A stretch of 63,556 nucleotides of DNA, counting the filler, from Psammoneis japonica (lineage: Eukaryota), in NCBI GenBank assembly GCA_008632985.1. It is 7 parts of 7 records of this genome, joined end to end, with 100 filler letters (N's around TTAATTAATTAA, not from the genome) between each part and the next. Parts side by side here need not be neighbours in the genome. Positions count along the whole stretch, not along the records: positions 48,425 to 57,546 come from QPGO01000536.1; 6 more parts are not named here. One strand, written 5' to 3'. The notes beneath the pieces were generated by a model, which did not search any database, was not told the origin of the DNA, and worked only from the letters and a program-made list of their open reading frames with translations. Shown piece by piece: positions 9,069-55,809 of the stretch (its first letter is position 1; each line of letters begins with the position of its first letter). Made by a program: the position numbers and the translations under genes.

Positions 9069-9069
<1 letters not shown>

Positions 9070-9131
<62 letters not shown>
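9070..9131. repeat. (CA)n microsatellite, ~31 units
   Basis: Directly visible. Confidence 0.97.
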
Positions 9132-9133
<2 letters not shown>

Positions 9134-9146
9134 GCTCCAACAAGGC

Positions 9147-9414
9147 TGCACATTTTGTTCATGGGAGTTGGTGAGTGGCCCACAAGCACAACATGCAACA
9201 ACAAACAGAGAGAGAGCGGCTGTTGATGATGAAAACACTCAAGAAGTTGGGGAACATGTTGCGTGTGCTCTGCTCCAGAAACCCACACAGCACATTTTGT
9301 TCATGGGAGTTGGTGAGTGGCCCACAAACACAACATGCAACAACACACAGAGAGAGTGGCTGTTGTTGATGAAAACACTCAAGAAGTTGGGGAGCATGTC
9401 GCGTGTGCTCTGCT
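9147..9414. repeat. Tandem duplication of ~125-145 bp
   Basis: GCACATTTTGTTCATGGGAGTTGGTGAGTGGCCCACAA..GCGTGTGCTCTGCT occurs at ~9147 and ~9290. Confidence 0.9.
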
Positions 9415-9613
9415 TCTTGGTTGTTTGAGAGGCGCAGACCAAAAATCCACACGTTGTTGGAGCTGACAGAGCAGGCACACACAAGCTGTTTGCTGCCCCC
9501 GCCAGACTGCAATGGTGTCTTCCCAGCTGTTTGTGGTGCCAATGAGACCAAACAAGCAACAATTGAACAAAAAGCTGCCGCTCAAGCCACTTCAAGAAAA
9601 GAAGTGTGATGCA

Positions 9614-9713
9614 NNNNNNNNNNNNNNNNNNNNNNNNNNNNNNNNNNNNNNNNNNNNTTAATTAATTAANNNNNNNNNNNNNNNNNNNNNNNNNNNNNNN
9701 NNNNNNNNNNNNN
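9614..9713. other. Artificial scaffold linker
   Basis: N44-TTAATTAATTAA-N44, with stops in all six frames. Confidence 0.98.
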
Positions 9714-14071: not shown

Positions 14072-17000
14072 CCACCAAGGAGCTCGTGCAGGGAGGTGAC
14101 GACACTGCGCTGCCCGCATTTGCTGCAGGCCTGCAATCGTGCTGCTCAGACGGGAGATGGAAGTGCCTCTTTCTTTAGTTTCTTCATCATGGGCCGAAAA
14201 CATGTCACACTCCTTGGCCCCTGTCAGCCATGTGGTTTCCATTTCAGCGAGAAGGCTTTCTTCAATCATTCCATTCCCTCTCATGTGCCTGATGAAATCT
14301 CCAAGGAGATCAATGGAGCAGATGCTTGCGACCCTTCCAATCTCGGTGAAGTGGGAATTGGTCTTTTGAAGTTCTACAGACACTTTGCGCCTGTCATGAG
14401 CCGAAACAGAGAATGGAAAACCTCCTGTCTCCACGGTGCTTCTGGCGACAAACTTCAACCTTCGAATCGCCCAGAACTCAGCAAACCGAGTGTTCAGCCT
14501 TGTGCTGACAACGACACGTTCGCCGTTTCCCGACAACCTCACTCCTTCCATGTGCCAATGCCAACTTGTGCTAAATTCAAAAGAACATGAAACAGCCACC
14601 TTGCCTTTGTCGCTTTTGCCAATGCCAGCTGCAGTTGGAGCATCAAGAGCAATCTTCTTAAACCCCCTGATCAGATCTGCACCCCCCTTGTTCTCATTCT
14701 TTGAATTGTCCAGCAAACAAATTGCAAATTTGAGGTGAGCAAGCTCATCCAGGGGAGTGCCTCAGGGAGCACACTGAAAGCCTGTGTCCCTTCTCCAAAC
14801 TTCCCTTGTGATGACAGCTCTCCCATGGCTGGAACTGGAATTTCCAGCAGAACAGTGCCAGGTGTGACTGTCTGTGCTGGTGGTGCAGGACTTGTGGGCC
14901 TCAACCTTGATCAAGATCACCACGTGCAATTGGCAGGAGGAGATTTGAAATCTTCAGAATTTTGGCAGGCAACAGCTGGTGCTCCCTGTTCTTCTGTTGT
15001 CACAAGAATGCTTTCCTCACAACATGATGAAATCTTGTTGCCAGCTCTGAGAATTGTTTGAACTTCTTTGCCAATGGTGGCATCAAGTTGCTTGAGGTCG
15101 TTGCTTGCTGGCACTTCCCAGCAAGCAACAAATCACGGGTCGGCTGCATGCAATGTCATGCAAACCCTTTTCCAAATGGGTGGAATGTTGACCATGTTGT
15201 TTGTTTTTGGCACACCATCCCATCCAAGTTGAAGTCCGATGAGCAGCTGCAAGTGTGCTCAAGCTCTGGTCTCACCCCATCACAAGCAAGTGTTGCTGTC
15301 AACAGTTGGGTGCTGATTTGAACCTGCTCCAGCTTTGTCATTCAAACAGCTTGTTGGAAATGCTTTGTGTTTCCCATGCAAAAAGGCAGCGAACATTGAA
15401 TCAATTGGGATTGCATGCTCTCAAAATCCGTGCATTTGTGCCCAGTGGACTCAGAGTCTGAGTCCACTCAGAGCCCAAAAACCTTTTCCTCTGAGCTTTC
15501 AACATGTTTGCAAGTTGTTTGCTGACAGACAAAGTGTCTGTGGCCTTCATTTCCAGCAAACAGGCATCTTGGTCAACTGACGAGGCATGTGGGTGTTTGC
15601 AGACATTTGCACCATGACTCCCGCCACAACCATCATCTCTTTTTTCTTGTTTTCTTTTGTCTTGCCGCTGGCTCAAATGGCAAAAAGAAAAAAGAACACA
15701 AGGATGCAGCATGACATCCTGGCTCATGCAGATTTGCACCTGTCCCGTTTGTCACTGTGAGCTGGAAACAAACGTCCAACTCTGAACGCCGGTCACAAAG
15801 AATGTGCGCACCTCCATTGTAAGAAACCATTTGCTCAACATGAACTCAAACACACAAGCCCAAGGCTGTTCAAGCAATTGGTGCCACTGGACCTGGAGCC
15901 AACCCACATGGAACAATGAGGTTTTGTGGGGACACCAAGACAGGATGGATGACATTGGTGGATCCCAAAAGTTCAATGTCTTTTGGTGCCGGAACCCAGC
16001 AAGTGCCCCTTGTCATTGACACACATCACGAGTGTCTTAGAGCTGAAACTCTTTGTGTTCACAGTTCTTTTGCAGTGCTCATGCGGACATCATTGTGGAA
16101 GAATCGAACACCATTTTGCCATTGAAGGGTTCTGGGTGACTGCAATGAAGTCAATGAGAATCTCATGACAAGAGTGGCAGTGAATTGCCAAGAGGATTTC
16201 AGCTGTCAAGATTCCAAGATGCAAAAGGTCATGGAAACAGCAACAGAGTTGGATGACAACAATGATGCTTCTTCACAAGAACCCAGATCACAGTCATCAA
16301 CTTGTGTGTTGGAAATCAATGAAGAGTTCTGCAAGCTGTTTGCTCACAGCCAAAGCACCAGCTGACACTGTCATGGAGTGGATGAGCAGCTGTCAGATTC
16401 AGAAAAAATCCTGTCAAAAAATTGTGCTTGCCGTTGGTTCCAACCAATGCAGCTGATCCAAGTTGGTGCCTTTGTCAGCCCAAGCTCATGAGATGAGTTC
16501 TTGTGATGCTCATTTTCCAGCTGGCTAGATTTGCACTCCTGTGGACATGACGCTTTGCAGCTGGGCAGTCTTTGCAGGAGCATTTGTTGACATGTCATCA
16601 TTTGTGCAGAAAAAAGAGTGATTTGATTTGCCAAATCATTGTTGCTCATGGACCACCACAAGCTGTTGGTTGTGCAACAGTTTTTGCTTTCAAAGAAAAA
16701 GCTCCCTGTCAACATTTTTGTTGAAAAGAATCATGCCTCATGCCCTTGACTGAATCAATTCTCCATCAAAAGGAAGCAACAGTGTGAAAACAAACAGAAG
16801 ACAATGTTCAAGACATTGAAGCTTTGGCATTCCAATGGAATGGCAGTTTGACAAGATTGGGGAAAGAGTGCAAGTGGGACAGATCACTCTTGAGAGAGAG
16901 TGGGTTGAAAAGTGTCAGCGGGAATTCTCAGCAAAGTTGTGCATTCCTGAATGAATCTCAGTCACTCGTGGATGTTTTTCAGAAGGAAGCAGCCAACCAA

Positions 17001-19447
17001 GTGCTTTTGAAACTTGGGCAGCAAGAGGAGCAATTCTTGATCGTGGAGTTCAATGATGATGCAACAAAACAAAGAATCACACACGGTCGCATTGTCAGCT
17101 TGCAAAAGAATGTCTCATTCTCTGGGACGGGTTCTAATCAAGAGCAAGAACAAAAGAGGATGAGCATCCAGATGAAATTGCCTTTAAATTGAAAGCTCAC
17201 CTTGAAAAAGCAATGGATGCATGGTTTCGTCTCGGGTTGACAAACAAATTGTCGATCCACGGCCTTGGCGTGCACGGCAGTGACGACTTTGAATTTTGGA
17301 GTGGTCTTCACAAATGAAATGATGAAGAACTCATGGAGCAGGTGCATCATTGTGAGACAATGGATGCATTGTGCACTCAGGGATTTCACTCTCTCTCACT
17401 CTAAGCAGCTGAAATTCAACGCTTTCACATGTTCAGTGCAAGCAGCCAGAGTCACACGGAGGAGGTCAACGAAAGTTGAAAACGCAAGTTCAAAAGTGAT
17501 CGAGCTGAAGTGGGTGCGGCAGCCCGAGTTGAAAGGGAAAAAGCTTGGAATCACATCTTTGAGGCCTGCAAAACAGGGAAACCAGTTCTTGAAGATCCCT
17601 TGGTGGTGCTGACCAAGGGAACCTCAGCATGGTCCACATCCAAGCAATGACAATCATTCGTGCATGAAAATTTAAGCAAACAACATGTGTGAGGAAGACG
17701 TGACCGCAATGACGTCATTGAACTGCACTGTCATTGCTCAAAATCAGTTCAAAGCTCACGAATTCAAACTGCAACAATGGACAAGAACAGCGCGACTCTT
17801 TGACAGCCACATCGTTGACACAGAAAAAAAGAAATCTTTTGATGTCTTTCTTCAACTTGCCCCAACTTGTGTTTTCTTGTGCATCTCTCATTTCTTGACA
17901 ATTGCTCACTTCTTTCCTTGGAACAAACACCACACATGAGACACTGGCATTGCTGTCTTGGACAGGCCATTGTGTGGTCATTTGCCCTTGGAAGCCAGCA
18001 CCGCAAACGGAATCATTCGTGGCACATCGTTCATGGTGTTGCGCAACGTTGCTTGCATTGTGCATTGAGTGCATGCATGTGCTCGTTCCTCGTTGAGAGC
18101 ACAACGCACTGAAACAAACAAAGTTGAATCAGTGCGACGAAAATGCGTGCCATTCTATGCACGTGGCCAACATGCCAAGAATCGGGATGCTGAATGCGCG
18201 AAATGCACGTGAGCTCGAAGGAGAATCCGACACCGCGCCGCAAGCCACAAGAGCAAGCGACAACAATGCCAAAGCTTTGATCGACTGTCGCATTGTTGTT
18301 CGTTGTTTTCTTTGTCTTTGTCATTGTTGTCTTTGTCATGGACGCGGCGCCTTTGTTGGACTTTGGCGGTGAAGGAGATGAGACTCCCGAACGAGAGTGC
18401 ATGCAACGCTTGTTCCAAAGGATTGCGGTTCAAAACGAGCAGGAAATGGAGAAACTTGAAGAACCATTGCGGTCGCTGGTGCGACTGGTGCATCAGGCAA
18501 GGACACATTTTCTTTCAGCTCTGCACTCCCCATGGATGGAGAATTGAAACCGAAAAAAAGAGAATCAACTCACGTGCGCTGATTGCCTTTTGCTCAAAGC
18601 AAAAATGGGTCGAGGCAAAGGAGTGCATCCTGTTGCACCCACAAGCAATGCATGAGATCACAACTTTGTTTGCTGGCAGATCTGTCACTCACATGGCCTG
18701 CAGCAATTTGGCTGATGTTGAAGAATTCAATGAAGCAGCTCGTGTTCAAAAACTCAACCAAGATGATAAAACGGAACGTCAAACATGTGACTTTGTGCAG
18801 TCATTGTTTGATGCAGCTTTCAGTTCCGACGATTTAGATTCACCCTCGAAACGGGCACTCGCACAATCAATGTTGTTTTGTCGCGATTGCAAAGGATGCA
18901 CGCTGCTGCAAAGCCGCGTCATCTACAACTTCTGGAGTGCGACTGATCCAGCGCCGCCAGCAAAGATTCTTCTGGAGTCGGCTGGAAATGCCTCTCCCAC
19001 AACTCCGTGCGAATTGGTCACCGCTGCATGCGAGAGAGGCGGACAGTGTTGCACATTGCATCAGGGGGGGAGTTCCCGCACCAGATTTTTGAGCTTCTAA
19101 TGGCTTGTTGCGGAGGCGCTCCGTCAGAGAACCCACTTTAATTCTAGATGGAGATGGTCAATCCATTCTAGACCTTGCGGTTGTCAATGCTCTGTCGGGA
19201 AGGCGTTGGAATGGGATGTTGGAACAAGGTTTCGGAGGACTTGTGCATCAAAATGATGAGGGTTTGTTTCCAATTGACAGAGTGGTTCAGGTTGCTCATC
19301 GTTTTGAGAGACCGGGAGAGCACATCTGTGAAATTGTTTTTCTCATGTTGCGAGCTCACTTTGGAAAAGTCGAAGCAGCATCTGAAGACTGGTTTCCACT
19401 TCATGCTCTGGCGCAGGCACCCTTTTGTTGCCCGTGCGTGTCAAAGA
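14072..19447. mobile_element. TpA-depleted block of decayed coding sequence (unclassified element or silenced genes)
   Basis: TA is nearly absent. Fragmented, protein-like, Tyr-poor ORFs on both strands. Confidence 0.55.
18540..19447 (+). pseudogene. Ankyrin-repeat-like gene remnant
   Basis: Ankyrin-like motifs RSVTHMAC, DCKGCTLLQ, DGDGQSILDLAV, GLFPID and WFPLHAL, spread over frameshifted ORFs 18303-19100 and 19105-19447. Confidence 0.45.
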
Positions 19448-19547
19448 NNNNNNNNNNNNNNNNNNNNNNNNNNNNNNNNNNNNNNNNNNNNTTAATTAAT
19501 TAANNNNNNNNNNNNNNNNNNNNNNNNNNNNNNNNNNNNNNNNNNNN
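19448..19547. other. Artificial scaffold linker
   Basis: N44-TTAATTAATTAA-N44. Confidence 0.98.
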
Positions 19548-30837: not shown

Positions 30838-32705
30838 ATTGTTGTTTTGTTTTGTTGTGTTGTGTAGTTGTTGCTGTCAATGTTCTTGTGTCGGGTCGCA
30901 ATCAACTCATCGCCTCTTTTTCGTCGCGTGTTGGCGTGTGCTGAAAATCGTGTGCCTGTCGTGTGAGCAGCCAACGGATTTATATGTTGAGAAATTTATT
31001 TAAAGTTTCTGAACTTAGTATCGCATTTATTGGTGTCACGGTCGTATCTAATCGTTGTGTATCCTTCAAATATGAATGTTATAATTGGAATATGTTTATT
31101 AGATCATTATAAAAATGACAACCAAAACAACTGCGTGTTTGTCAGCACAAATCTTTTTTTAAAATTGCACAGGTTTCCGTCCAACAAAGCTTCTGTCTGT
31201 GCAAGTTACCGGCAGACGACTCAACTGGCTGACTGACGGACGCGCGACGTCACCTGCATCATCTTTTTTTTGAGATGCTCCCTCCGACGCCATAACTTAC
31301 CTGCTGTACACGCCACCATGACAAAAAAGATGCACTGAAGACGGGATGCTGTTTTGTTTTCCCAAGAATTGACACTTGCACCAACACACCACTCATGAGA
31401 GTGCATGTGACAGGATTTGAATGGGATTTGGGTGCGCGCGAAATGTCGCGCGCCATTTAGTTTGCCGCACACAGTTTTGTGTGCTCTTTAGTTCCGCACG
31501 TGCGCTCGCGATGCAGTTTGCTTTCGAGCCACATGGCTCACAAGAACAACAACAGTGGCCTGATTGTGCCAACTCACACGTCTTTTGGCTCCTGCAATGG
31601 TCTCTGAGCGGAGACTCATCTGCTGTTTGGACAGCAGCAAGGAGTTGTTGCTTGAGATCTTGCCATTTGCCTTCAATTTCTGTCAGATTGACAGTCTTGC
31701 TCATTGTCAACTCATTGAGCAACCGCCATCATCGTTGTTGATTTGCCGACGATGCTGTTTCAATTCCACATGGACCTCCGCACTGCACATGTTCTGCGTG
31801 TGCATTGCCAAGTCTGCGTGCATTCAATGCCAGGCATCAGCAGGAATTTAACGTCGCCGTCAAGTCTCCTTGCTGCTGGACATCTGGATTGATTGTGCCA
31901 CCTTTTGTCGCTGCAGACATGCATTCAACGGTTGCATCCAAGTCCATCCTTGATCCTCATCCCTTGACATGCCCATTCAACGGTCAACAGTCAAGAACCC
32001 CACACATTCAAGGATCTTCGTCGACGCTGGAGACATGCACGCGTGTGTCTTCACGGCCAAGAACTTGAACCCACTCTTTGGACTGCGGCTTTGCCACCAC
32101 TCTACAAGCACACCGAGTCCATTGCACTTGATCTGCCCCAGACTGCTGGTGCTCCACAGTTCTGCCAGGTCCACGAGGACAACTGTGAGAGCAAGCAGCC
32201 GTGATTGCAGCCTGCGTTGGGGTGAGGGTGTTTTCCCGCGTTTGTTCGTTAGTCCACAGCGCCCAACGCCTGCGTCAACTGGCCAGCCTGATCGGGAAAT
32301 CCAACAGACATAAAACAAGAACGGCTCGGGGGTCTTGTCCACCTCCAGTCAGCTCACCTGCAGGGGTTTGCAACCCGCTGCTCTGCTCGCAAGCAACCCA
32401 AAGCGCCGCCAGCTGCGGGTTCGGATGTGCCGGCACAACTCTGCGGACCGGATGGGAAGTTTGGCACTTGACAACGAATGGGACAGCACAACCCGGCAAC
32501 TTCTGATTTTAAGATGGTTCAAGATTTCAAGTCAAGTCCATTTCAAGTCAAGTCCATTCCCACTCAAGTTTCAAGTCTGCCTCCGCGTCCTGACAAGAAT
32601 CGCTTGCCCTGACACCTTTTTTGTCTGCCATGGTTCTTGCTCGTCAGCAACAAACCGATGGTTTCAAGCACGTTGTTGGAACCGTGCTTGCCCAAGGTGC
32701 TGGAA

Positions 32706-33093
32706 GACGGGCTCCAGTCCCAGGTGGGACTTTTTGTGACATTTGCCCCGCAGAATTCTATGTGCGAGCTCTGCAGTTCGCACTCGGGTCAATGGACACA
32801 TTTGTCTTCGACACAAAATAAACAGCCAAGTTTGCAGTGCATGTGTCTCTGTTCGCACTCAAAGTTTTGGACAATGCGCCTGCCCTGCACCATTCTTAAG
32901 ACACTCGAGAATGGCGCAGAAGAAAAAATGTTAAAAGTTGTTGAATGGATCGCCTGATGATTGTGCTATAAAATGATGCAAAATTTCGCAAAAATCACGT
33001 AGAAATGCACGTGCGAGACATGCGACGCGATTCAAAAAACTGTCGACATCACAGTTCAGCAGTGCAAGGTCCCACCTAGACCTGGAATGCGTC
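32706..33093. mobile_element. ~390-bp MITE (GAC..GTC family), TSD GGAA
   Basis: TIR GACG(C/G)GTTCCAG....AGGTGGGA, with GGAA on both flanks. Confidence 0.9.
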
Positions 33094-33940
33094 GGAAGCC
33101 CTCTTTGTTTGGCTTTGGCCCATGACGGCACGGACTCGCACCAAGAACTGTTCACGTTCACACCTTCCCAAATCGACTCGCTTGAGTGCGACAATGGCAC
33201 CAATGTGATCCCATTGCCCCGAGGTCACAAGAACATGTCAACAGCTCCAGTCAGTCTGCACATTGTCAAAGCACACAAAGGCCTTGATGTTGCCAATGAC
33301 TTCTCATTGTCCACGCATGATGAGTTCCTTGCCTGCCGCCTCAGCCCCGACCACATGTCTTCTGTGTCCGTCGGCAGCTCACCTCTTGCACCTCCGCATG
33401 TCACCAACCCAACCAAGGCACGCAACCCAGTGCAAGACTTCAAGCGAGGCATCAAGCGTGACCCCACTGCTTTCACAGCTCTCAAATCCGACAAGCAGTG
33501 GCACACTTGGCACACCTCACTTGTGGCACAAGCCCGTGCCCAAGATGTTGAGTGCACTCTAGACTCGTCATACAAACCGACCAGCCCCGAAGACAAACTG
33601 CTCTTTTCTGAGCAGCAAAAGCACATGTTCGCCGTCTTCAAACGCGTCCTTCTCACCAACAAGGGCAAAGCTCTCATTTGCGAAAATGTGGGGTCTTCTG
33701 ATGCCCAGACCGTCTGCCGCGCCTTGTCCGAGCATGCGCTTGCCTCCAGCCGTGCATCTGTCGAGTCCTCCACCTTGCTCATGCACCTCACCACCGCACG
33801 TCTTGGTGATGGCACTTGGAAAGGTCCGACCCACGGGTTCATCCTTCATTGGCAGGATCAGTTGCGCAAGTGCGAGGCACTCATCCCGGCCAGTGACCAC
33901 TTCTCTGAAGGACAGAAGTGCGTCATGCTCAAGAATGCCG

Positions 33941-34329
33941 GACGGGTTCCAGTCCTGGGTGGGACTTTTTGTGACATTTGCCCCGTAGAATTCCACGTGC
34001 GAGCTCTGCAGTTCGTACTCTGGTTGATGGATGTGTTTGTCTTTGACATAAAAAAAACGGCCAAGTTTGTAGTGCATCTGTCCCTGTTTGCACTCAAAGT
34101 TTTGGACAATGCGCCTGCCCTGCACCATTCTCAAGACACTGGAGAATGGCGTAGAAGAAAAAAATGTCAAAAGTTGTTCAATGGACAGCCTGACAATTGC
34201 ACCATAAAATCACACAAAATTTTGCCAAAATCACGTAGAAATGCATGTGTGCGACATACGACGCGATTCAAAAAACTGTTGATGTCACAGTTCAGTGGTG
34301 CGAGGTCCCACCCAGACCTGGAGCGCATC
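33941..34329. mobile_element. ~390-bp MITE (GAC..GTC family), TSD GCCG
   Basis: Same TIR. Removing it restores the gag sequence MLKNAAHPVEELRAVKNQA. Confidence 0.92.
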
Positions 34330-35031
34330 GCCGCACATCCTGTCGAGGAACTCCGCGCCGTCAAGAACCAAGCTGATCAACATCGCACGCAGAGTGGCAA
34401 GAGCCTCACATGCGATCAACATTGTGGCTTGCTCCTCTCCGCGGTGGCTCAATGCGACAGCACGTTTCAACCCAAGACGACACCTCGAGCTCCCCACCGT
34501 GCCACATGCGCACACAACGTCCACTCCGAGGAACCATCCGATGATGTGTTCTGTGACATCGACAGCAAAATTGATGTCCTTCAGGCCAACGCTGCCTGCG
34601 CCTGCGGTCCCAGCCTCGCCGGCGACCAACAGAAACGCCTCCCTCCTGACCACCAATGGGTTTTTGGGATTCGTTGCCCAACTCCTCCAAGGCGATCATC
34701 CTTGAGCATTCTCGTCCGCCTCCTCGCAACCCATGAGCCGGCAACTGCCATGAGTCCATTGCGGTCAACCTTCACGACCAACGACTTGGGAGTGACGGTG
34801 ATGTCAACTTGTCCTCCACGACTCTTGCTGCCTCTGGTGATCCCACTCTGAATGTGGGTGCCACTTCAGACAATCCCATTCTGGCACATCTCACCAAGCG
34901 CAAGCCACTGCCACCCGGTGATCTGCAGTGCCTGTTGTCTCCTAACCAAGCCCCCAAAGCCAGTCGACCGGGCCCATCCGCTGCTCCCTCTACCTCGCCT
35001 GCTCCCCCAGATGACATGGAACTTAACGGCC

Positions 35032-35427
35032 AACGCGCTCCAGCCCCAGGTGGGAGCTCGCAGTGCTGATGTGTGACAACAATGATTTTCATCATCCGTC
35101 GTATGTTTCGTACGTAGATTTCTACGTGTGACATTTAAAAAAAATTGTCCAGACTCACTGTTTTGCGAAGCCCCAGACGTTTTGTGTGACAAATTTACAG
35201 AAACAACAGTGCGCCAGTTGCATTCTTCAATGTCTGAAGAATGCAACTGGCCAAGCAAAAAATGATGCACTTCAATCATGTGCGAGTTTGTGCGTTCGCA
35301 AAATTGCCTCATTTTCTGTTGGCGATCATTGACATTTTAATTGCCGTGTGATTTTGCTGCAGAGCTCGCACGCAGAAGTCTGCGGGCCAAATGTCACACG
35401 GATTCCCACCTGCGTCTGGAACGCGTC
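35032..35427. mobile_element. ~395-bp MITE (GAC..GTC family, second subfamily), TSD GGCC
   Basis: Reverse complement of 53573-53970. Removing it restores ELNGRTCHRVDNHNVVCSAS. Confidence 0.92.
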
Positions 35428-49417: not shown

Positions 49418-49534
49418 CAAGAAAGTCATGTGGGTGGGCCGCTCCATCCAGGAACCAAACCACCAGCACTGGATCTTCTGCAATGTTGCCGGGGCGCAGC
49501 TGCTTGATCGCAGCAGAGGCTGCAATGACCGCTG

Positions 49535-50160
49535 TCATGTGGCCAGCCTCGATGGCCGCCGCCATGCTTGGCACTTGAACGCTGAAACAACCGGGCAGCC
49601 CAGCTCATCAAGCCTCCCCCCCTCACATGACAAATGGAAGCGGGGAAAAGGAAATGGGAAAGGGGAGCACGGACAACACAACACTGCCAAGCACAAAAAT
49701 CAATGTCAGGACAGCATGGAAATGACACACCCACAGACAAACTGACAAAAAATGACACCACCAAACAAAAAATTGTGCGTCAATTTGACAGGGTTCGGGC
49801 AGTGGACAGCAAGCAAAGGCCAAAAGGTGAGGCTGAAGGGAAAATGGGAAATGGGAAATGGGTGAAGTGCAGAGCTCAGCTCAAGCACAAAACAAACTTT
49901 GGCGAATGTTTGCAAAACTGAAAGAGAGAAACAAAATGCAGAAATGAGGTGCGCTGTGAAAGACACAGATGGAGCATGCAGCAAAGCAAGGAAGAAACTT
50001 CAGAGAGGAGCTGGCTGGTCTGAAACAACAGAAGAGTCATCGTTGGCTTCAAGGGCGGCGTTGTTCAGCTGCTGTTTGTTGGCATTGCCAAACATTTCCT
50101 GGGCTTGACGACAGAAAACCAGAGCTTCATGGCACTCTTGACTGAGTGGCTCAGGAATGA
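49535..50160. repeat. ~620-bp dispersed repeat; second copy at 55188-55808
   Basis: Near-identical CTCGATGGCCGCCGCCATGCTTGGCAC..GAGTGGCTCAGGAATGA. Confidence 0.9.
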
Positions 50161-50258
50161 CATCATCTGGGCAGATGAAAAGCCCGAAGTGGTGGAGGTG
50201 ATTGAGGCCGGGGTGGGAACGGCAGCACCGATGTTCTGGTGTCCTGGATCAGCTGGGA

Positions 50259-50569
50259 GACGGGTTCCAGCCCCAGGTGGGACTTTTTGTGACACTGGTT
50301 CTGCAGAATTCTGCGTGCAAGCTCCGCAGTGAAATTGTCAAGCAATGCATGTGCCCTTTGCAGTGTGTCCGGGCACACTCTTCAGTCACCAAAGAACACA
50401 CCCAGTGCATTTTCATTGTCACAGATGTGCACAACAGAAAGCATTTGGCTTCACAAAACAGGCAGTGTGGAACAATTTTTTACAACAGAACACGCAGAAA
50501 TGTGCACGCGAAACATGCGACGGATGACAAAAACGATTGTGTCGCAGCTCAGCAGTGTGAGGTCCCACC
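50259..50569. mobile_element. Shorter, truncated member of the GAC..GTC MITE family
   Basis: Left TIR GACGGGTTCCAGCCCCAGGTGGGAC. The right end stops at GAGGTCCCACC. Confidence 0.8.
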
Positions 50570-51496
50570 AGTGATCACATGGGCAATCGCTGCAATTGCC
50601 AGTGTTCGTTGGAGCCCTTGCATGAAAATTGGCTGAGGTGGCCAACCCAGCGGGCTGAAGGACAATTCTGAGAAGCCCGACAGCTGCAGAAGNNNNNNNN
50701 NNNNNNNNNNNNNNNNNNNNNNNNNNNNNNNNNNNNNNNNNNNNNNNNNNNNNNNNNNNNNNNNNNNNNNNNNNNNNNNNNNNNNNNNNNNNNNNNNNNN
50801 NNNNNNNNNNNNNNNNNNNNNNNNNNNNNNNNNNNNNNNNNNNNNNNNNNNNNNNNNNNNNNNNNNNNNNNNNNNNNNNNNNNNNNNNNNNNNNNNNNNN
50901 NNNNNNNNNNNNNNNNNNNNNNNNNNNNNNNNNNNNNNNNNNNNNNNNNNNNNNNNNNNNNNNNNNNNNNNNNNNNNNNNNNNNNNNNNNNNNNNNNNNN
51001 NNNNNNNNNNNNNNNNNNNNNNNNNNNNNNNNNNNNNNNNNNNNNNNNNNNNNNNNNNNNNNNNNNNNNNNNNNNNNNNNNNNNNNNNNNNNNNNNNNNN
51101 NNNNNNNNNNNNNNNNNNNNNNNNNNNNNNNNNNNNNNNNNNNNNNNNNNNNNNNNNNNNNNNNNNNNNNNNNNNNNNTTGGGGTTGGGTCAGGCAGAAC
51201 CAAGTGCTCTCGCGACGTCAACTCGATCGAGCTCCGCTCCGCTCCACTCTCTCTCGTTGAACTTGTCGCATCGAGCACTTCTGGGTTGGGGTCAGGGAAA
51301 AGGAAAAAAGGAAAAAAGAAAAAAGGGAAAAAAAGGGAAAAAGAAACAAAGGGAAACAAGGGAAAAAGGGAGGGGGGGACAGAGGGAAACAAGGGAAACA
51401 AGGGGAAAAAAGGAACAAAGCAAAACAAGAAAAAAATTTGGAGACCAAGGTTCGAGTCCTTGTCTCTGCCTTTTTTTACTTTTTTTTACCATTTTC

Positions 51497-54400
51497 ACAT
51501 TTGGTGCTGTTGATGAGGCTCGCTTTGCCAACTGGGGATCAAGAGGGCACGGAGGATGCGAGGACCTTGTTGCTGATCTCAACTTGAGCACAGTTGCCAA
51601 TGAGCTTGGGCGGGGCACGGCGATTGCGAATGTTGTCTTCAAGCGTGTTGACAAATTCTTGTCGGTTTTGACTCCGCACACATCCGTGACAAGGGATTTG
51701 GTGCCAACAAAGAGCTGGGCACTGGCGCAGCTGGAGTCAACAGCGGGGTGTCAGAGTGCACCATGTTGGGCAACGGGTTCGTTGCATCAGTGGACGTTGA
51801 GAGCCGGGTTGGGCAACTTGTGCACCTTTTTCAAGTGCGTGCTGTGCGTCATGCAATCAAAAGTGTGGTGGACAGTGTCCTTTGGAAGAAAGCCAAAACA
51901 AGGGTGCAGAGACTCAAAGTTGGGGTCCTTTGGATTGATCTCATGCTCATGGCATTTGCAGAAGAAATTGGACGTCGGGAGCAGGTGGTCATCAAGGACG
52001 GAGTCCACAAGCATGGCATTGTTGATGACATGATGGTGGTGATGGTTGCCGAACTTGTCAAAGAGGTTGGCAGTCGGTCGGCCTGGAGGTCAGATGCAGC
52101 ATCATGCTGCGTCTCATTGTCGGCGATTCTGGTGGTTGAGGGACAGATGGGTCCCAAGTGTTGTCACCTGTGAGGATGACGTGTGGCAAGGTGTCCCATT
52201 TGGCGTCAGTGTGTGGGAGCATGGCAATGTGCAGAAGGCCGCCTTTGATGTCAATGGGGATGACACATCCATCAATGTGGTGATGCACTGCAGACCACTG
52301 GGGACCTTGATGGGCCGATCATTGATGTCGTGTTTGTGCCGCTCAAGTTGACCGCAAGAGTGCATGGTCTTGCCCTCACCAGTGCAGGCATGCTGGTGAA
52401 GAGTGGTGATGATGGGGCCACGTTGGGTGTGGATGACACCACCCGCAGTGACAATGGGAACATCGACCAGCTGGTGATTGTCGACACCTTTGACATCAAC
52501 CTGGTGACCAGCGTGAGCAATGACATGAACATCGTCACCGGGCAACACCGCTGTTTGCACCGCAATTCACGTGGGTGCCTTTGCAAGTGGATTTGTGGGT
52601 CGAGGCAGAGCAGACGACATTGTGGTTGTTGACATGATGGTGTTCATGACCATTGATCTCAATGTCAGTGTCATCAAGCTTCTCGTCAGAGCAGACAGAA
52701 GGCACAGATCCGGGGGGTTTCTCTCCAGAATGGGCGGAAGGAGGCAGCTCAGGTGCAAGGAGACGTTGCAAGTCACTGGGTGGCAGAGGCTTGCAGCTGG
52801 TGAGATGAGCCAGAATGGGGTCAGCAACGCAGCATGGCATGGTGCGGAGCACAAGGAGCCGTCTTGGGGGCAAACGTGCTGTCGTGCTGTGCCATGGCAG
52901 AAAGCAGGAGTCCATGGCACTGCTCACAAGAAAGGCCCTTGCCATTCTGTGCGCGAAACTGATTGGCCTGATTCTTTGCCAAGCGCAGTTCTTCGACAGG
53001 GTGAACAGAGTTCTCAAGCATGACACGTTTCTGTCCAGCCAAGAAATGGTCCGTGCCCAGGATGAGAGCTTGCTTGAGCATCAGAGGAGCCAACATGTTC
53101 ACAAAAGAGTGCCTTGCCTTTGTCACTCTGCAAGATGCATTCGAGCACAATGACCATGTGCCCCCGTTGTTCATCGATCAGGGCCTTGTCCTCAGCTGCA
53201 GAGGGCTTGTGCTTCGGATCAAGAATGCGGTCAACTTCGTGGGAGCGGGCCTGTGCAATGATGGAGGTGTGCCACGTGTGCCACTGTTTGTCAGACTTGA
53301 GAAGCGCAAAGGTGAGTGGGTTGCGTTTGATGCCTTGTTTCAAGTCACGCATGGGGTCATGTGGTTTGGGTGGCAACAAGCCAGGAATGGGGGCAGAAGG
53401 TGCTGTGCCCATGGAGAGGGACGCTGCGTGCTCAGGACTGAGACGACAGTTGGTGAACTCCTCGTGTGTGAACAATTGGGGGTTGTTGCTGACATTGGTG
53501 CTGCCGCGCACTTTTGCCATGTGCAGGCTAATCAGCGCAGCTCTCTGTGCTTTGCAGCCATGTGGCAAGGGCGACGCGTTCCAGACGCAGGTGGGAATCC
53601 GTGTGACATTGGGCCCGCAGACTTCTGCGTGCGAGCTCCGTAGTAAAATTGTGCGGCAATTAAAATGTCAATGATCGCCAACAGAAAATGAGGCAATTTT
53701 GCGAACGCACAAACTCGCACATGATTGAAGTGCATCATTTTTTACTTGGCCAGTTACATTCTTCAGACATTGAAGAATGTAACTGGCGCATTGTTGTTTC
53801 TATATAAATTTGTCATGTAAAACGTCTGGGGTTTCGCAAAACAGCGAGTCTGGACAATTTTTTTTAAACATCACACGTGGAAATCTACGTGCGAAACATG
53901 CGACGGATGACAAAAATCATTGTTGTCACACGTCAGCACTGCGAGCTCCCACCTGGGGCTGGAACGCGTCGGGCATTTGATTGGCACCGTCGTTGCAAAC
54001 AAGGGCACCCAGTTGCGCAGGAGCAAAAGAAAAGAGGTCCTGATGCGAGTCAGTTCTGTCAATGTTGAGAGTGGAGTGCAGTGGACTGTCTGCGGCTTGA
54101 CCTCAGAACAGCACCCAGGATGTGCTCGAGGCCATCAATTTGTTGCTGTCTGGTCAGAACCATGTTGCAACTGGGTGAGTGTCGGGATTGGCCAGAGTGG
54201 GAAGGTGAGCTTGAAACAACTTGAAACTTGGCTTGAGTCTTGACTTGAAGTCTTGAGCCATCTTGCAAGTCAGAAGCCACCGTGCCATGACATCCCGTTT
54301 GCCTGCAGAGTTGTGCCGGCACGTCCGAACCCGCAGCTGGCGACAATTTGGGTTGCTTCAGAGCAGAGCAATGGGTTAAAAACCCCTGCTGACAAGCCAG

Positions 54401-55174
54401 CTGGAGGTGGACAAGACCTCCGAACCGTTCTCATTTTGTGTTGGTTGGATGACCCGATCAGGCCGGCCAAATTTGGCACTGTGGAGGGACGAACAAACAC
54501 GGGAGCTGCGCCCTTGCCCCAACGTTCGTGGACCTTGCAGGACTGCAGAAGACCAGCAATCCGGCACAGATGCAAGATGGTGGACTTGGCGTGTGCAAAG
54601 CAGGGCCAGAGTCAAGGGCTCATGTCGTGCGCACATGAGCACAAGCAGATGGATTGGTCTGTCTGCCAACCAGGGCAGAATCTGCTGCGGGGAATCCGGA
54701 ATCTCAGATTTCTGAGAATTCGGGAATTCCTGACCAAACAAATGTCCGTTGAACAAACACATGCAATGATGGGAGGTGTTGGACAAAACCAAATGTGTGG
54801 ATTTAATCCAGCATCCAGCAGCGAAGAAGGCAGACATGTGCTTCCACCGCCAGCTGTGCACGTCATCAAAAAATTTCTCGATGACAATGACGAACGCTCA
54901 GTGGACAAGAATGAGCAAGACTGTTGATCTGACAGAAGTTGAAGATGACTGGGTGGAAGAAAACAGTGACTCCTCGCTGCTGTCTGAGTGGCAGATGAGT
55001 CTCCATGTGGAGACTGTTGCAGGAGCCGAAAGACTGGTGTCGTGATGTCGGCACTGCTGTTGTTGTTCTTGTGAGCCATGTGGCTTGAAAGCAATTTGCA
55101 TTGCACGGTGTGCCCGGAGCTGAGAGCACACATGACTGTGTGCGACAAACTGAAATCTTGCTCAAATCCTGTCA
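51497..55174 (-). mobile_element. Diatom Copia-type LTR retrotransposon (LTR/leader, gag, protease, part of integrase), decayed
   Basis: TGACAGGATTTGA start at 55174. gag MVLTRQQQIDG and LKQGIKRNP..LKSDKQWHTW. pol motifs VDVKGVDNHQ, WDTLPHVILTGD..WDP, PALNVH and AQLFVGTKSLVTDV, with integrase following protease as in Copia. Confidence 0.9.
53573..53970. mobile_element. ~398-bp MITE (GAC..GTC family, second subfamily), TSD GGGC
   Basis: Complete TIRs, GGGC on both flanks, and an internal 16-bp perfect hairpin. Confidence 0.92.
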
Positions 55175-55809
55175 GCAATGACGACCATCATGTGGCCTTC
55201 CTCGATGGCCGCCGCCATGCTTGGCACTTGAACGCTGAAACAACCGGGCAGCCCAGCTCATCAAGCCTCCCCTCACATGACAAATGGGAGCGGGGAAAAG
55301 GAAATGGGAAAGGGGAGCACGGACAACATGACACTGCCAAGCACAAAAATCAATGTCAGGTCAGCATGGAAATGACACACCCACAGACAAACTGACAAAA
55401 AAATGACACCACCAAACAAAAAAATTGTGCGTCAATTTGACTGGGTTTGGCAGCAGACAGCGGGCAAAGGCCAAAAGGTGAGGCTGAAGGGAAAATGGGA
55501 AATGGGAAATGGGTGAAGCACAGAACTCAGCTCAAGTGCAAAACAAACTTTGGCGAATGTTTGCAAAACTGAAAGAGAGAAACAAAATGCAGAAATGAGG
55601 TGCGCTGTGAAAGATGCAGATGGAGAATGCAGCAAAGCAAGGAAGAATCTTCAGAGAGGAGCTGACTGGTCTGAAACAACAGAAGAGTTGTCGTTGGCTT
55701 CAAGGACGGCATTGTTGAGCTGCTGTTTGTTGGCATCACCAAACATTTCCTGGGCTTGACAGAAAACCAGAGCTTCGTGGCACTCTTGACTGAGTGGCTC
55801 AGGAATGAT

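What the first reader, a model, noticed from the sequence alone, without database searches (positions are those of the whole stretch)
51497..55174. Copia polyprotein systematically recoded at TA-containing codons (Tyr->Cys/His, Ile->Met)
Seen: gag/pol reads HQHACTG..KTMHS, GCVIP, LPHTD, HPCFG and TDVCG, with essentially no Tyr. From my recollection of diatom Copia motifs these are HQYAYTG..KTIHS, GY.IP, RPYTD, RPYFG and TDVYG. Between copies in this window the same site alternates His and Cys: FKHV (~32665), FKCI (~36875), LEHI (~54130); NGRTC (~35430) versus NGHEH (~52640). That is expected if TAY became CAY or TGY independently. Inference: the mechanism disables TEs by missense load rather than by creating stops.
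Basis: partly seen in the sequence, partly recalled or inferred. Interest (0 to 1): 0.8.

Follow-up and report, generated by a model that had tools for sequence, protein, structure and literature searches.

The report
TA-erasing hypermutation in diatom transposons
A dead Copia-type jumping gene in a diatom genome has had almost every TA step of its DNA turned into CA or TG after it inserted, the mark of a targeted mutator that so far has been described only in one unrelated alga.

Summary
The finding lies in a degenerate Copia-type LTR retrotransposon on the minus strand (LTRs 49522-50160 and 55175-55808). It holds 6 TA dinucleotides where about 174 are expected at the rate of the neighbouring host genes. 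At sites where relatives have Tyr, this copy keeps 0 of 13 and shows His or Cys at 10. A second copy keeps 1 of 11. Two host genes keep 23 of 24.

It is not codon recoding. It is a dinucleotide-level change, TpA to CpA or TpG, in every frame and in the non-coding LTRs. The two LTRs differ at 8 sites by CA against TG, so the change came after integration, in DNA. Ordinary CpG decay runs alongside it and explains the His/Cys at Arg sites (9 of 20).

TpA sites changed about 10 times faster than CpG sites and about 130 times faster than other sites. Surviving TAs are mostly in YTAR contexts, which points to a 5'-TAY-3' target.

The host is a diatom. The same signature was shown experimentally in the chlorarachniophyte Bigelowiella natans (2026 preprint). 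I found no report for diatoms. Two of 80 related metagenome loci show it too. The enzyme is unknown; an adenine deaminase is my leading guess.

The parts
55175..55808 (-). 5' LTR of the element (in the element's orientation)
   Evidence: Direct repeat with 49522-50160: 93.3% identity over 641 columns. No TA in it. Ends are good to a few bases; no target-site duplication was found.
49522..50160 (-). 3' LTR
   Evidence: Against the other LTR there are 8 dinucleotide sites with CA in one and TG in the other, 12 CG kept in both, and 3 CG against CA/TG.
53990..55174 (-). Leader / upstream coding-like region shared with copies A and B (holds LEHI); TA-free except at 54377 and 54804
   Evidence: blastn to 31456-32553 and 35658-36754 at 73-80% identity. 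Motif. TA positions. No relative in the protein library covers this stretch of this copy.
53562..53972 (.). Inserted MITE copy (about 400 bp, terminal inverted repeats) that still has 12 TA and 28 CG: younger than the TA loss around it
   Evidence: 91.6% identical to 35030-35442. Six-copy alignment with inverted termini. Odds ratios.
53017..53667 (-). gag-like ORF piece
   Evidence: Aligned by 10-22 relatives in tblastn. Homologous to 33306-33707 of copy A. Tyr to His at 53211, where relatives have Tyr in 8 of 11.
51480..53080 (-). Protease-like and integrase-side part of the polyprotein, in several shifted frames (HQHACTG..KTMHS, GCVIP, LPHTD, HPCFG, TDVCG)
   Evidence: The 150-aa piece 52117-52566 has 1406 relatives at E <= 1e-3. 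No TA between 51487 and 53529.
51221..51475 (.). Low-complexity purine/pyrimidine-rich stretch at the edge of the gap
   Evidence: Translations (KKGKK / FFPFF runs).
50693..51178 (.). Run of N (assembly gap) where RT/RNase H would be expected; no RT is present in the assembled copy
   Evidence: N runs; no tblastn match below about 51250.
50252..50569 (.). Second, older copy of the same MITE inside the element, itself stripped of TA (1 TA, CG odds ratio 0.56)
31404..35561 (+). Related copy A (leader, gag, protease start) with three MITE insertions; TA odds ratio 0.14-0.18
   Evidence: Tyr kept at 1 of 11 sites; Cys 7, His 2.
35602..37579 (+). Related copy B (leader), cut by an N run
   Evidence: 87.6% identical to 31404-32577 over 1179 columns. 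30 CA/TG discordant sites.
2623..9659 (.). 7-kb block almost free of TA (odds ratio 0.02-0.33) and poor in CG (0.10-0.59); content unidentified
   Evidence: No Pfam family in the ORFs of 62 aa or more taken from it.
14659..19493 (.). 5-kb block almost free of TA; content unidentified

Best explanation
The region is a dead, truncated Ty1/copia-type LTR retrotransposon of a diatom. After it integrated, its DNA was hit by a mutator that turns the dinucleotide TpA into CpA or TpG. This is one transition, A to G or T to C, which are the same event seen from either strand.

The process ran nearly to completion and acts on transposon DNA while sparing neighbouring host genes. Ordinary decay of methylated CpG to TpG/CpA runs alongside it, about ten times more slowly. 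Together the two drive all TA and CG steps towards CA/TG. In coding sequence this reads as Tyr to His/Cys, Arg to His/Cys, Ile to Met/Thr/Val, and as loss of all TAA/TAG stops.

Shown:
- The specificity for TpA.
- The direction of the change.
- That it followed integration.
- That host genes are spared.
- That at least one MITE copy is hit as well.

Inferred:
- The process is enzymatic and targeted, as in Bigelowiella natans.
- It prefers 5'-TAY-3' (equivalently 5'-RTA-3' on the other strand).
- It acted in an episode or episodes, because a younger MITE inside the element still has its TAs.

Most likely chemistry, at about 40%: deamination of adenine to inosine in DNA by a TadA/ADAT-like enzyme.
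For: 1. Specificity. In the element only TA (odds ratio 0.02; 6 seen, 174 expected at the host ratio) and CG (0.52) are low. CA (1.62) and TG (1.70) are high. The other 12 dinucleotides are near host values. By my arithmetic on those counts, about 168 TA and 170 CG are missing and about 306 CA+TG are extra.

2. Direction.
- Relatives have Tyr where copy C has His or Cys (10 of 13 sites, 0 kept) and where copy A has them (9 of 11, 1 kept).
- 77 metagenome relatives keep Tyr at 947 of 1169 such sites and show His/Cys at 36.
- Host genes keep 23 of 24.
- Where copies A/B still have TA (13 sites), C has CA 7 and TG 3.
- In the contigs of run X1, 6 of the 40 listed differences are TA elsewhere against CA/TG in the window.

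3. After integration, in DNA.
- The two LTRs, identical at insertion, differ at 8 sites by CA against TG and have no TA, while 12 CG are intact in both and only 3 decayed in one. CpG decay alone predicts 0.09 such sites, P = 1.4e-13.
- Copies A and B show 30 such sites against 1.8 expected, P = 1.6e-26.
- A MITE copy, which is a DNA transposon with no RNA stage, is stripped too (1 TA against 7-12 in five other copies).

4. Rates from A against B. Conversion probability per copy is 0.90 for TA, 0.21 for CpG and 0.017 for other sites, a rate ratio of about 134: 14: 1.

5. Targeting. TA-poor blocks alternate with host genes at normal TA (0.5-0.7). The maximum TA-free run is 206 bp in host sequence against 2042 bp here.

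6. Context.
- Surviving TAs in TE blocks: RTAY 10% against 32% in host DNA; YTAR 38% against 15% (p = 4e-15).
- Among sites with an inferable ancestral TA, both copies converted at 7 of 7 RTAY, 22 of 26 mixed and 2 of 8 YTAR (p = 0.001).
- The 4-mer balance puts most of the gain from mixed contexts into RCAR/YTGY (+20.5 per kb) rather than RTGR/YCAY (+8.8 per kb).

7. Elsewhere. 2 of 80 related metagenome loci (L075 TA 0.02; L080 TA 0.10) show the same signature, with Tyr kept at 0 of 5 and 0 of 10 sites. Many others show CpG loss alone.

8. Precedent. Mutation-accumulation lines of B. natans gained 230 of 231 mutations as A>G/T>C, all at TpA, in two integrated viral regions (preprint 10.64898/2026.01.13.699255; Results and Discussion read).

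9. Chemistry. TadA-based editors prefer a UACG(A) motif like their tRNA loop substrate (PMC8052359, passages). That fits T-A-Y.
Against: - No whole genome is held, so I could not test whether all repeats, or only repeats, are hit. I also could not look for a deaminase gene.
- No unmutated copy of this same family was read base by base. The polarity at individual DNA sites rests on protein relatives, on LTR logic, and on 40 of 600 differences that the read-laying tool printed. Among those 40, 7 were CG elsewhere against CA/TG here, and 6 were the reverse.
- Run X1 may be the data the window was assembled from, so it is not independent.
- The two largest TA-free blocks hold no recognisable transposon gene, so 'targets transposons' is shown for only part of the TA-free DNA.
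- The context rule assumes that the ancestral 4-mer make-up resembled host DNA and that CpG decay is strand-symmetric. The direct test on Tyr codons goes the predicted way but is not significant: previous base R gives His 10, Cys 9; previous base Y gives His 2, Cys 7; p = 0.22.
- L012 (TA 0.27) keeps 14 of 19 Tyr, so low TA alone is not proof of the process.
- The metagenome scan used patterns that demand Tyr or Phe in the HQY motif, so it under-samples mutated copies.
- Nothing here separates adenine deamination from a route through modified thymine.
Confidence: 0.75

Rival explanations
1. CpG decay alone. The His/Cys residues come from Arg CGY codons through deamination of methylated cytosine, and no process acts on TA.
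For: CG is depleted in the element (odds ratio 0.52). 9 of 20 Arg-majority sites are His/Cys in copy C and 3 of 15 in copy A. 29 of 133 replaced sites fit CpG decay. Many metagenome relatives show CG loss with normal TA. TEs of Phaeodactylum are CpG-methylated through DNMT5a (PMC9998398, abstract and passages).
Against: It cannot remove TA (6 seen, 174 expected) or turn Tyr sites into His/Cys (19 of 24). It predicts 0.09 and 1.8 CA/TG-discordant sites where 8 and 30 are seen. It is a real second process here, not the explanation.
Confidence: 0.02
2. RNA or cDNA editing before integration. An ADAR/ADAT-like enzyme edits the retrotransposon transcript or its cDNA, and the edited copy is then inserted.
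For: U before the edited A is the usual ADAR preference, as the B. natans preprint notes. Edited retroelements fixed in genomes are known in vertebrates (PMC4866542, seen only in a search listing).
Against: LTRs are copied from one template and are identical at insertion, yet here they differ by CA against TG at 8 sites. A DNA-transposon MITE copy is stripped too. Tyr goes to both His (12) and Cys (16) across four copies, so there is no sense-strand bias. Blocks with no retroelement gene are also TA-free.
Confidence: 0.04
3. Native TA avoidance. This transposon lineage evolved to avoid TA, through codon use or escape from a TA-cutting nuclease or TA-targeting insertions, so nothing was mutated after insertion.
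For: TA is under-represented in the host genome generally (0.57). L012 has low TA (0.27) yet keeps 14 of 19 Tyr.
Against: 75 of 80 relatives have TA odds ratios of 0.44-0.97. Conserved Tyr is lost. LTR-against-LTR discordance needs TA at insertion. Non-coding DNA is equally stripped. Other copies in run X1 have TA at some of these sites.
Confidence: 0.02
4. GC-biased gene conversion or a general AT-to-GC bias among recombining repeats.
For: GC is higher in the TA-free blocks (0.51-0.55 against 0.45-0.49). The family is highly repeated: 5782 contigs were laid at 80% likeness or more.
Against: The loss is confined to TA. AA (1.27), TT (1.23) and AT (0.82) are not removed. A general W-to-S bias has no reason to respect a dinucleotide or the RTAY/YTAR flank rule.
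Confidence: 0.03
5. Same targeted DNA-level mutator, different chemistry. The thymine of TpA is enzymatically modified (for example oxidised by a TET/JBP-type enzyme) and then mispairs with G, giving T to C, rather than adenine being deaminated.
For: TA is its own complement, so T>C at 5'-RTA-3' and A>G at 5'-TAY-3' give identical data.
Against: No evidence here for any thymine modification. The TAY flank rule matches the known U-A-C loop preference of TadA, which mildly favours adenine deamination.
Confidence: 0.14

Closest known systems
TpA hypermutation of integrated giant-virus and virophage DNA in Bigelowiella natans (Mettrop et al., bioRxiv 10.64898/2026.01.13.699255, 2026; abstract, Results and Discussion read)
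   Same: Same signature: only TpA is hit and it becomes TpG or CpA. It is confined to foreign or selfish DNA while the rest of the genome is normal. The rate excess is of the same order: about 1000-fold there by direct measurement, and about 130-fold over other sites inside the same element here.
   Different: - The host is a diatom (stramenopile), not a chlorarachniophyte.
- The targets are an LTR retrotransposon and a MITE, not viral inserts.
- The loss is saturated (odds ratio 0.02). Their NCLDV region is at 0.45 and their virophage region is not depleted.
- The evidence here is historical (LTR pairs, relatives), not de novo mutations.
- The flank rule (TAY; YTAR refractory) is not in the sections I read.
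Repeat-induced point mutation (RIP) of ascomycete fungi
   Same: DNA-level, near-saturating, dinucleotide-specific transition mutagenesis of repeated or selfish DNA that leaves host genes alone. Two copies of one sequence are mutated independently.
   Different: The direction is opposite. RIP turns CpA into TpA and enriches TA and stop codons; here TA is destroyed and stops are erased. Dependence on duplication, on a sexual stage, or on a RID-type enzyme could not be tested. Some diatoms have RID-related DNMT4 of unknown function (PMC9998398, passages).
Decay of methylated CpG in diatom transposons (DNMT5-dependent CG methylation; PMC9998398)
   Same: Present here as a second process: CG odds ratio 0.52, Arg to His/Cys, one CGA to TGA stop. 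It is common among related metagenome loci.
   Different: It does not touch TA. It is about ten times slower per site than the TA process in copies A/B.
tRNA adenosine deaminases TadA/ADAT2 and the DNA base editors derived from TadA
   Same: A to I next to a 5' U/T, with a pyrimidine after the A (UACG loop motif; PMC8052359, passages). The B. natans authors name an ADAT2 homologue as a candidate.
   Different: No natural genome-defence role on double-stranded chromosomal DNA is established for this family. No gene could be examined here.
Ty1/copia LTR retrotransposons of diatoms (the 'CoDi' groups; name recalled, no paper read)
   Same: LTRs. A gag-protease region homologous to 1406 proteins. 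One relative comes from Nitzschia sp. Nitz4. Intact relatives carry one long ORF with RVT_2 about 780 residues downstream.
   Different: This copy has no RT in the assembly, many frameshifts, two MITE insertions and no Pfam-detectable domain.

Membership tests
Ty1/copia LTR retrotransposon | Two long terminal direct repeats flanking an internal coding region | tested here: met
   49522-50160 and 55175-55808, 93.3% identity over 641 columns. gag-to-integrase-side coding lies between them on the minus strand.
Ty1/copia LTR retrotransposon | Copia-type reverse transcriptase (Pfam RVT_2) downstream of protease and integrase | tested here: inconclusive
   Not present in this copy: no tblastn match below about 51250, and an N run at 50693-51178. 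It is present in relatives: P0148 (E = 3.7e-32), L042 and L029. Only 1 of 6 long library relatives showed it. No integrase family was detected even at E <= 1.
Ty1/copia LTR retrotransposon | Target-site duplication, primer-binding site and polypurine tract | tested here: inconclusive
   Reading the flanks in the alignment, I saw no clear duplication or tract. LTR ends are uncertain by a few bases and the sequence is heavily mutated.
TpA-specific hypermutation of foreign DNA (as in B. natans) | Changes are A>G/T>C transitions confined to TpA, giving TpG/CpA | tested here: met
   TA odds ratio 0.02 with CA/TG excess; CA/TG discordance between LTRs and between copies; Tyr to His/Cys.
TpA-specific hypermutation of foreign DNA (as in B. 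natans) | Confined to selfish or foreign DNA; host genes spared | tested here: met
   Host segments have TA 0.57 and keep Tyr at 23 of 24 sites. TE copies keep 1 of 24. Caveat: two TA-free blocks have unidentified content.
TpA-specific hypermutation of foreign DNA (as in B. natans) | Elevated de novo mutation rate measured in living lines | not testable with these tools
   Only historical inference is possible here: relative rates of 134: 14: 1 from copies A/B.
TpA-specific hypermutation of foreign DNA (as in B. natans) | Responsible enzyme (ADAT2-like deaminase proposed, unproven even in B. natans) | not testable with these tools
   No genome is held for the window.
Fungal RIP | C to T at CpA (or other CpN), enriching TpA and creating stops | tested here: not met
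   The direction is opposite. TA is destroyed and CA/TG enriched. TAA/TAG fall from 16.6 and 15.4 to 1.5 and 0.2 per kb.
Fungal RIP | Triggered by sequence duplication, at a premeiotic stage, needing RID | not testable with these tools
   The family is highly repeated in run X1, with 5782 contigs laid. Whether single-copy DNA escapes could not be tested.
Methylated-CpG decay | CpG depletion with matching TpG/CpA gain in methylated repeats | tested here: met
   CG odds ratio 0.52. CG in A/B (116 sites) stands against CA 23 and TG 27 in C. Arg goes to His/Cys at 9 of 20 sites. Methylation itself was not measured.
ADAR-type hyperediting fixed by retrotransposition | Edits arise before integration, so both LTRs carry the same change; sense-strand A>G bias | tested here: not met
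   8 CA/TG discordant sites between the LTRs. His 12 against Cys 16 at Tyr sites across four copies. A MITE copy is also hit.

The most novel reading that the evidence does not exclude
Diatoms, or at least this one, possess a dedicated genome-defence mutator that works as a mirror image of fungal RIP. It recognises transposon DNA after insertion. It deaminates adenine in 5'-TAY-3' on both strands until no TA is left, which wipes out Tyr codons and TATA-like or AT-rich signals while never creating a stop. The YTAR context, which includes the TTAG of the telomere repeat, is refractory. Its presence in both a stramenopile and a rhizarian would make it an old, shared SAR-group immune system rather than a curiosity of one alga.
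Probability: 0.45. Interest if true: 0.85.

Novelty: new member of a known kind. Interest (0 to 1): 0.7.

Why it matters
Targeted mutagenesis of selfish DNA is established for cytosine: RIP in fungi and APOBEC in animals. A mutator aimed at TpA, pushing AT to GC, has one experimental description, a 2026 preprint on Bigelowiella natans, where the long-term genomic trace was weak.

This diatom window adds four things:
- The end state. Transposons with no TA left, at an odds ratio of 0.02.
- Proof from LTR pairs that the change happens in chromosomal DNA after insertion.
- Relative rates. TpA changes about 10 times faster than methylated CpG.
- A flank rule (TAY) that narrows the search for the enzyme.

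It extends the process to a second eukaryotic supergroup lineage, and to the ecologically dominant diatoms, which have genetic tools.

There are practical consequences:
- Such copies escape domain-based transposon annotation. No Pfam hit was found in any of the 11 pieces tried.
- They produce long false ORFs in all six frames, because TAA and TAG are gone.
- They raise local GC content.
- A natural TpA-specific DNA adenine deaminase, if that is what it is, would also interest base-editing research.

Tried and rejected
- **Pfam on this copy.** 11 ORF pieces gave no relevant family.
- **Pfam on other TA-poor blocks.** 73 ORFs of 110 aa or more and 92 ORFs of 62-109 aa gave only a sub-threshold rve hit at 57012-57377 and three irrelevant weak hits. 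The content of blocks 2623-9659 and 14659-19493 stays unknown.
- **Integrase in relatives.** Pfam at E <= 1 on four long relatives found no integrase family.
- **Whole genome.** None is held, so there was no genome-wide scan and no search for deaminase genes.
- **Lon-like host gene for naming the organism.** Its relatives are bacterial-type and unnamed, with 75% as the best identity. That search did not help. The mitochondrial carrier did.
- **Atlas look-up.** It gave only a weak lead, a Bacillariophyta cluster at 0.91.
- **Earlier findings of this scan.** Four look-ups returned nothing on this genome or this signature. The rows returned concern phages and bacteria and do not bear on this case.
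- **Runs X2 and X3.** They hold next to nothing of the stretch.
- **Read laying.** It printed only 40 of 600 differing places, chosen for strongest support. It is a partial and biased view.
- **L012.** I first counted it as a third TA-poor relative, but it keeps 14 of 19 Tyr. I treat it as ambiguous.
- **Strand asymmetry.** On the + strand, A>G 13 against T>C 6 at Tyr sites of copies A and C, by my count. This is not significant and I dropped it.
- **Tyr outcome by preceding base.** The result goes in the predicted direction but p = 0.22.
Rejected.
- **Literature.** Six searches found the B. natans preprint and no report of TpA loss in diatom or other stramenopile transposons. The library lacks most subscription journals, so this is not proof of absence.

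Full report
**1. What is at the coordinates**

The finding lies inside an LTR retrotransposon on the minus strand. Two direct repeats, 49522-50160 and 55175-55808, are 93.3% identical over 641 columns. Between them, reading right to left, lie:
- a leader shared with two other copies in the window (55174-53990);
- an inserted MITE (53562-53972);
- a gag-like ORF (53667-53017);
- a protease-like and integrase-side region in several shifted frames (53080-51480);
- a low-complexity stretch;
- an N run (50693-51178);
- a second copy of the same MITE (50252-50569).

Pfam sees nothing in 11 ORF pieces of this copy. The 150-residue piece 52117-52566 has 1406 relatives at E <= 1e-3 in the representative library. 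One of six long relatives (P0148), and two intact metagenome relatives with single ORFs of at least 1712 and 1738 residues (L029, L042), carry the Copia-type RT domain RVT_2 about 780-950 residues downstream of the matching region. One relative comes from Nitzschia sp. Nitz4.

The element is therefore a truncated, degenerate Copia-type element. No RT is present in the assembled copy.

Two related copies lie at 31404-35561 (A) and 35602-37579 (B), both on the plus strand.

**2. The host**

Host genes in the window are long ORFs without introns. The mitochondrial phosphate carrier at 60806-62335 has its best named relatives in diatoms: Nitzschia inconspicua 61%, Seminavis robusta 55%, Fragilaria crotonensis 54%, and Pseudo-nitzschia, Cyclotella and Thalassiosira entries. 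The best unnamed hit is at 73%. An Atlas look-up gave a Bacillariophyta cluster as first hit, which is weak evidence.

The window is therefore from a diatom whose own proteins are not in the library. It is not Bigelowiella natans.

**3. The observation**

All five quoted gag/pol motifs are present at the stated places, and KTMHS follows HQHACTG in the same frame. In the 150 best relatives the corresponding residues are:

| Site | Relatives |
|---|---|
| HQ[H] | Tyr 134 of 152 |
| A[C]TG | Tyr 75 of 152 (Leu 32, His 20) |
| KT[M]HS | Ile 145 of 152 |
| G[C]VIP | Tyr 76 of 104 |
| LP[H]TD | Tyr 52 of 65 |
| TDV[C]G | Tyr 8 of 12 |

(consensus.)

The Cys of HPCFG is ambiguous, and its His stands at an Arg-majority site (13 of 21). 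NGRTC does not exist in the window. The text there is VGRTC, it belongs to the end of a MITE, and it is not homologous to NGHEH.

Counts over all sites where at least five relatives align and half agree:

| Sequence | Tyr-majority sites | Tyr kept | His/Cys |
|---|---|---|---|
| Copy C | 13 | 0 | 10 |
| Copy A | 11 | 1 | 9 |
| Host Lon-like gene | 17 | 16 | 0 |
| Host carrier gene | 7 | 7 | 0 |

(Fisher p = 3.6e-11.)

Seventy-seven metagenome relatives keep Tyr at 947 of 1169 such sites and have His/Cys at 36.

**4. It is a dinucleotide effect, not a codon effect**

The window as a whole has a TA odds ratio of 0.38, but this is a mixture. Host segments are at 0.5-0.7. The blocks at about 2.6-9.7 kb, 14.7-19.5 kb, 31.4-37.6 kb, 41-43.5 kb, 48.5-57 kb and from 62.6 kb on are at 0.02-0.3.

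In the element, without the young MITE and the gap (5355 bp), there are 6 TA. Base composition predicts 305, and the host ratio of 0.57 predicts 174. CG is at 0.52, CA at 1.62 and TG at 1.70. The other twelve dinucleotides are close to host values. By my arithmetic on these counts, about 168 TA and 170 CG are missing and about 306 CA+TG are in excess, so the books balance.

The longest TA-free run is 2042 bp (51487-53529). In 21.5 kb of host sequence the median gap between TAs is 16 bp and the largest is 206 bp.

With TAA and TAG gone, the element has 1.5 and 0.2 such triplets per kb in six frames, against 16.6 and 15.4 in host DNA. All six frames show long false ORFs.

**5. Direction and timing**

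The two LTRs of one element are identical when it inserts. Here they differ in 43 columns, 9 of which are gaps. Eight of the differences are adjacent pairs with CA in one LTR and TG in the other. There is no TA in either LTR. Twelve CG are intact in both LTRs and three have decayed in one.

A CA/TG pair needs an ancestor of TA or CG that changed once in each LTR. From the CG counts, the chance per LTR that a CpG decayed is about 0.11. That predicts 0.09 discordant sites, and 8 are seen (P = 1.4e-13). The ancestor was therefore TA. The element arrived with roughly 16 TAs per LTR, a normal density, and lost them all afterwards, in chromosomal DNA.

Copies A and B repeat the result over 1179 columns:
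- 30 CA/TG discordant sites, which make up 60 of the 133 mismatched columns;
- 3 TA kept in both copies;
- 7 TA against CA/TG;
- 48 CG kept in both;
- 26 CG against CA/TG.

CpG decay alone predicts 1.8 discordant sites (P = 1.6e-26).

The conversion probability per copy is about 0.90 for TA, 0.21 for CpG and 0.017 for other sites. As rates this is about 134: 14: 1. The estimate assumes independent decay from a common ancestor.

Further support for the direction:
- Where A/B still have TA (13 aligned sites), C has CA at 7 and TG at 3.
- Logan contigs of run X1 lay 5782 pieces on the stretch, with transitions dominating: 504 places against 95 for transversions.
- Of the 40 differences printed out of 600, six are TA elsewhere where the window has CA/TG. 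Seven are CG elsewhere where the window has CA/TG. Six are CA/TG elsewhere where the window has CG.
- X1 may be the source of the assembly and is not independent support.

**6. Two processes**

CpG decay is real here. Copy C keeps 8 of 20 Arg-majority sites and shows His/Cys at 9. Copy A keeps 8 of 15, with 3 His/Cys. Host genes keep 42 of 54, with one His.

The 133 replaced majority sites in C divide as follows:

| Class | Sites |
|---|---|
| Fit a single CpG>TpG/CpA change | 29 |
| Fit TpA>CpA/TpG (Tyr>His/Cys 10, Ile>Val 4, Val>Ala 2, Ile>Met 1, Ser>Gly 1) | 18 |
| Other transitions | 14 |
| Transversions | 38 |
| Two or more changes | 34 |

The last two classes largely reflect ordinary divergence from the relatives.

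The two processes are separable. Among 80 metagenome loci encoding relatives, many have CG at 0.05-0.25 with TA at 0.45-0.7. Only L075 (TA 0.02, CG 0.19), L080 (TA 0.10) and, doubtfully, L012 (TA 0.27) are TA-poor. L075 and L080 keep Tyr at 0 of 5 and 0 of 10 sites. L012 keeps 14 of 19, so I do not count it.

L075 and L080 are only 68-70% identical to the window's element over short stretches. The signature therefore occurs in other Copia lineages, in assemblies from other projects. Whether they come from the same species I cannot tell. The scan's patterns required Tyr or Phe in the HQY motif, which biases it against mutated copies.

**7. Which DNA is hit, and when**

A roughly 400-bp MITE with inverted termini occurs six times in the window. 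Five copies keep 7-12 TA and 16-28 CG. The copy at 50252-50569, inside the element, has 1 TA and 11 CG. A DNA transposon is thus hit too.

The other MITE copy inside the same element (53562-53972) has 12 TA, while the DNA on both sides has none. Either it arrived after the episode that stripped the element, or the process follows sequence families rather than places. Within MITE columns, TA, CA and TG alternate among copies.

The two largest TA-free blocks (2623-9659, 14659-19493) have no recognisable gene. 'Transposons' is therefore shown for the Copia copies and the MITE, and only presumed for the rest.

**8. A flank rule**

- Surviving TAs in the TE blocks (177) are 10% RTAY, 52% mixed and 38% YTAR. 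Host DNA has 32%, 54% and 15% among 830 TAs (p = 4e-15). The three metagenome loci go the same way (p = 0.001).
- At sites with an inferable ancestral TA in the LTR pair and the A/B pair, both copies converted at 7 of 7 RTAY, 22 of 26 mixed and 2 of 8 YTAR sites (YTAR against the rest, p = 0.001).
- In the 4-mer balance for mixed contexts, RTAR+YTAY falls by 18 per kb. RCAR+YTGY rises by 20.5 per kb, while RTGR+YCAY rises by only 8.8.
- If CpG decay is strand-symmetric, most mixed-context conversions are A>G in T-A-Y, which is the same as T>C in R-T-A.

One half-site rule, 5'-TAY-3', explains all three classes. RTAY has two targets, mixed contexts have one, and YTAR has none.

Tyr codons agree in direction but not significantly. 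With a purine before the codon, His 10 and Cys 9. With a pyrimidine before it, His 2 and Cys 7 (p = 0.22).

The rule rests on the assumption that the ancestral 4-mer make-up resembled host DNA.

**9. Mechanism**

Shown:
- a post-integration change at the DNA level;
- specificity for TpA;
- near-saturation;
- host genes spared.

Inferred: it is enzymatic and targeted.

The only experimental precedent I found is the B. natans preprint. In its mutation-accumulation lines, 231 of 302 nuclear mutations fell in two integrated viral regions. Of those, 230 were A>G or T>C, all at TpA, and they arose in only some lines. The authors propose an ADAT2-like adenine deaminase.

The TAY rule found here fits that family. 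The natural substrate loop and the off-target motif of TadA-based editors is UACG(A) (PMC8052359, passages). I put adenine deamination at about 40%.

A route through a modified thymine in R-T-A gives identical sequence data and cannot be excluded.

RNA editing before integration, CpG decay alone, native TA avoidance and general GC-biased conversion are each contradicted by specific results (see rivals).

**10. Comparison and novelty**

The process works like RIP in logic and is opposite in direction. It is not RIP, because that defining feature was tested and not met.

It matches the B. natans process in the two features that could be tested. The other two, measured de novo rate and the enzyme, cannot be tested here.

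Six literature searches found no report of TpA loss in diatom or stramenopile transposons. The B. natans preprint does not contain the word 'diatom' (occurrence count).

I therefore file it as a new member of a known, very recently described kind. What is new is:
- a new supergroup lineage;
- new targets;
- the saturated end state;
- the LTR proof of timing;
- relative rates;
- a flank rule.

**11. Verdict**

Interest is 0.7.

Noticed in passing
window 38027-38937: About 150 copies of GGGTTA (the telomere repeat TTAGGG) sit between an N run and a masked stretch, next to the transposon cluster. This is either a chromosome end joined in scaffolding or an interstitial telomere array. Its TA sits in the context T-TA-G, the YTAR class that the mutator spares (TA odds ratio 1.45 in that bin).
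   Followed up: partly
window 32705-33093, 33941-34330, 35030-35442, 41508-41898, 50252-50569, 53562-53972: A MITE family of about 400 bp with roughly 24-bp terminal inverted repeats (GACGCGTTCCAG..CAGGTGGGA) has inserted repeatedly into the Copia copies. Read in frame, it adds spurious peptide repeats to the 624-aa ORF 32977-34851.
   Followed up: partly
window 2623-9659 and 14659-19493: Two blocks of 7 kb and 5 kb are almost without TA and poor in CG. They have open frames on both strands but no Pfam family, no LTR pair and no similarity to the Copia relatives. They may be old transposons mutated beyond recognition, or something else.
   Followed up: partly
window 48547-49419 and 56223-56655: The DNA on both sides of the element is itself a direct repeat (48547-48747 with 56223-56422 at 95.5%; 49334-49419 with 56567-56655 at 90%). 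The element therefore sits within a duplicated or tandem older repeat. A sub-threshold integrase (rve) hit lies at 57012-57377 on the minus strand.
   Followed up: no
window 25112-27812 (+): The Lon-related protease gene (AAA_32, LonB lid, Lon_C) has its closest relatives, at 60-75% identity, among unnamed metagenome proteins and proteins named from bacterial MAGs. It may be a gene of bacterial origin in the diatom. A single N at 26338 splits the ORF.
   Followed up: no
window 12754-13303: A tandem array of a 129-bp GC-rich unit (4.3 copies, 98% matches) lies at the edge of a TA-poor block.
   Followed up: no
L075 (whole, 4147 bp) and L080 (whole, 2081 bp): Metagenome contigs from two other projects encode Copia relatives with the same TA-free signature (6 and 13 TA). 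L012 shows a sharp change from TA-normal DNA (first 800 bp) to TA-poor DNA, but it keeps most Tyr codons.
   Followed up: partly
window 9614-9713, 19448-19547, 29111-29210, 38938-39037, 48325-48424, 57547-57646: A regular pattern of 44 N, 12 bases and 44 N recurs about every 9.2-9.8 kb. It looks like masking rather than assembly gaps. The larger N runs (37580-38026, 48748-48920, 50693-51178) look like real gaps.
   Followed up: no
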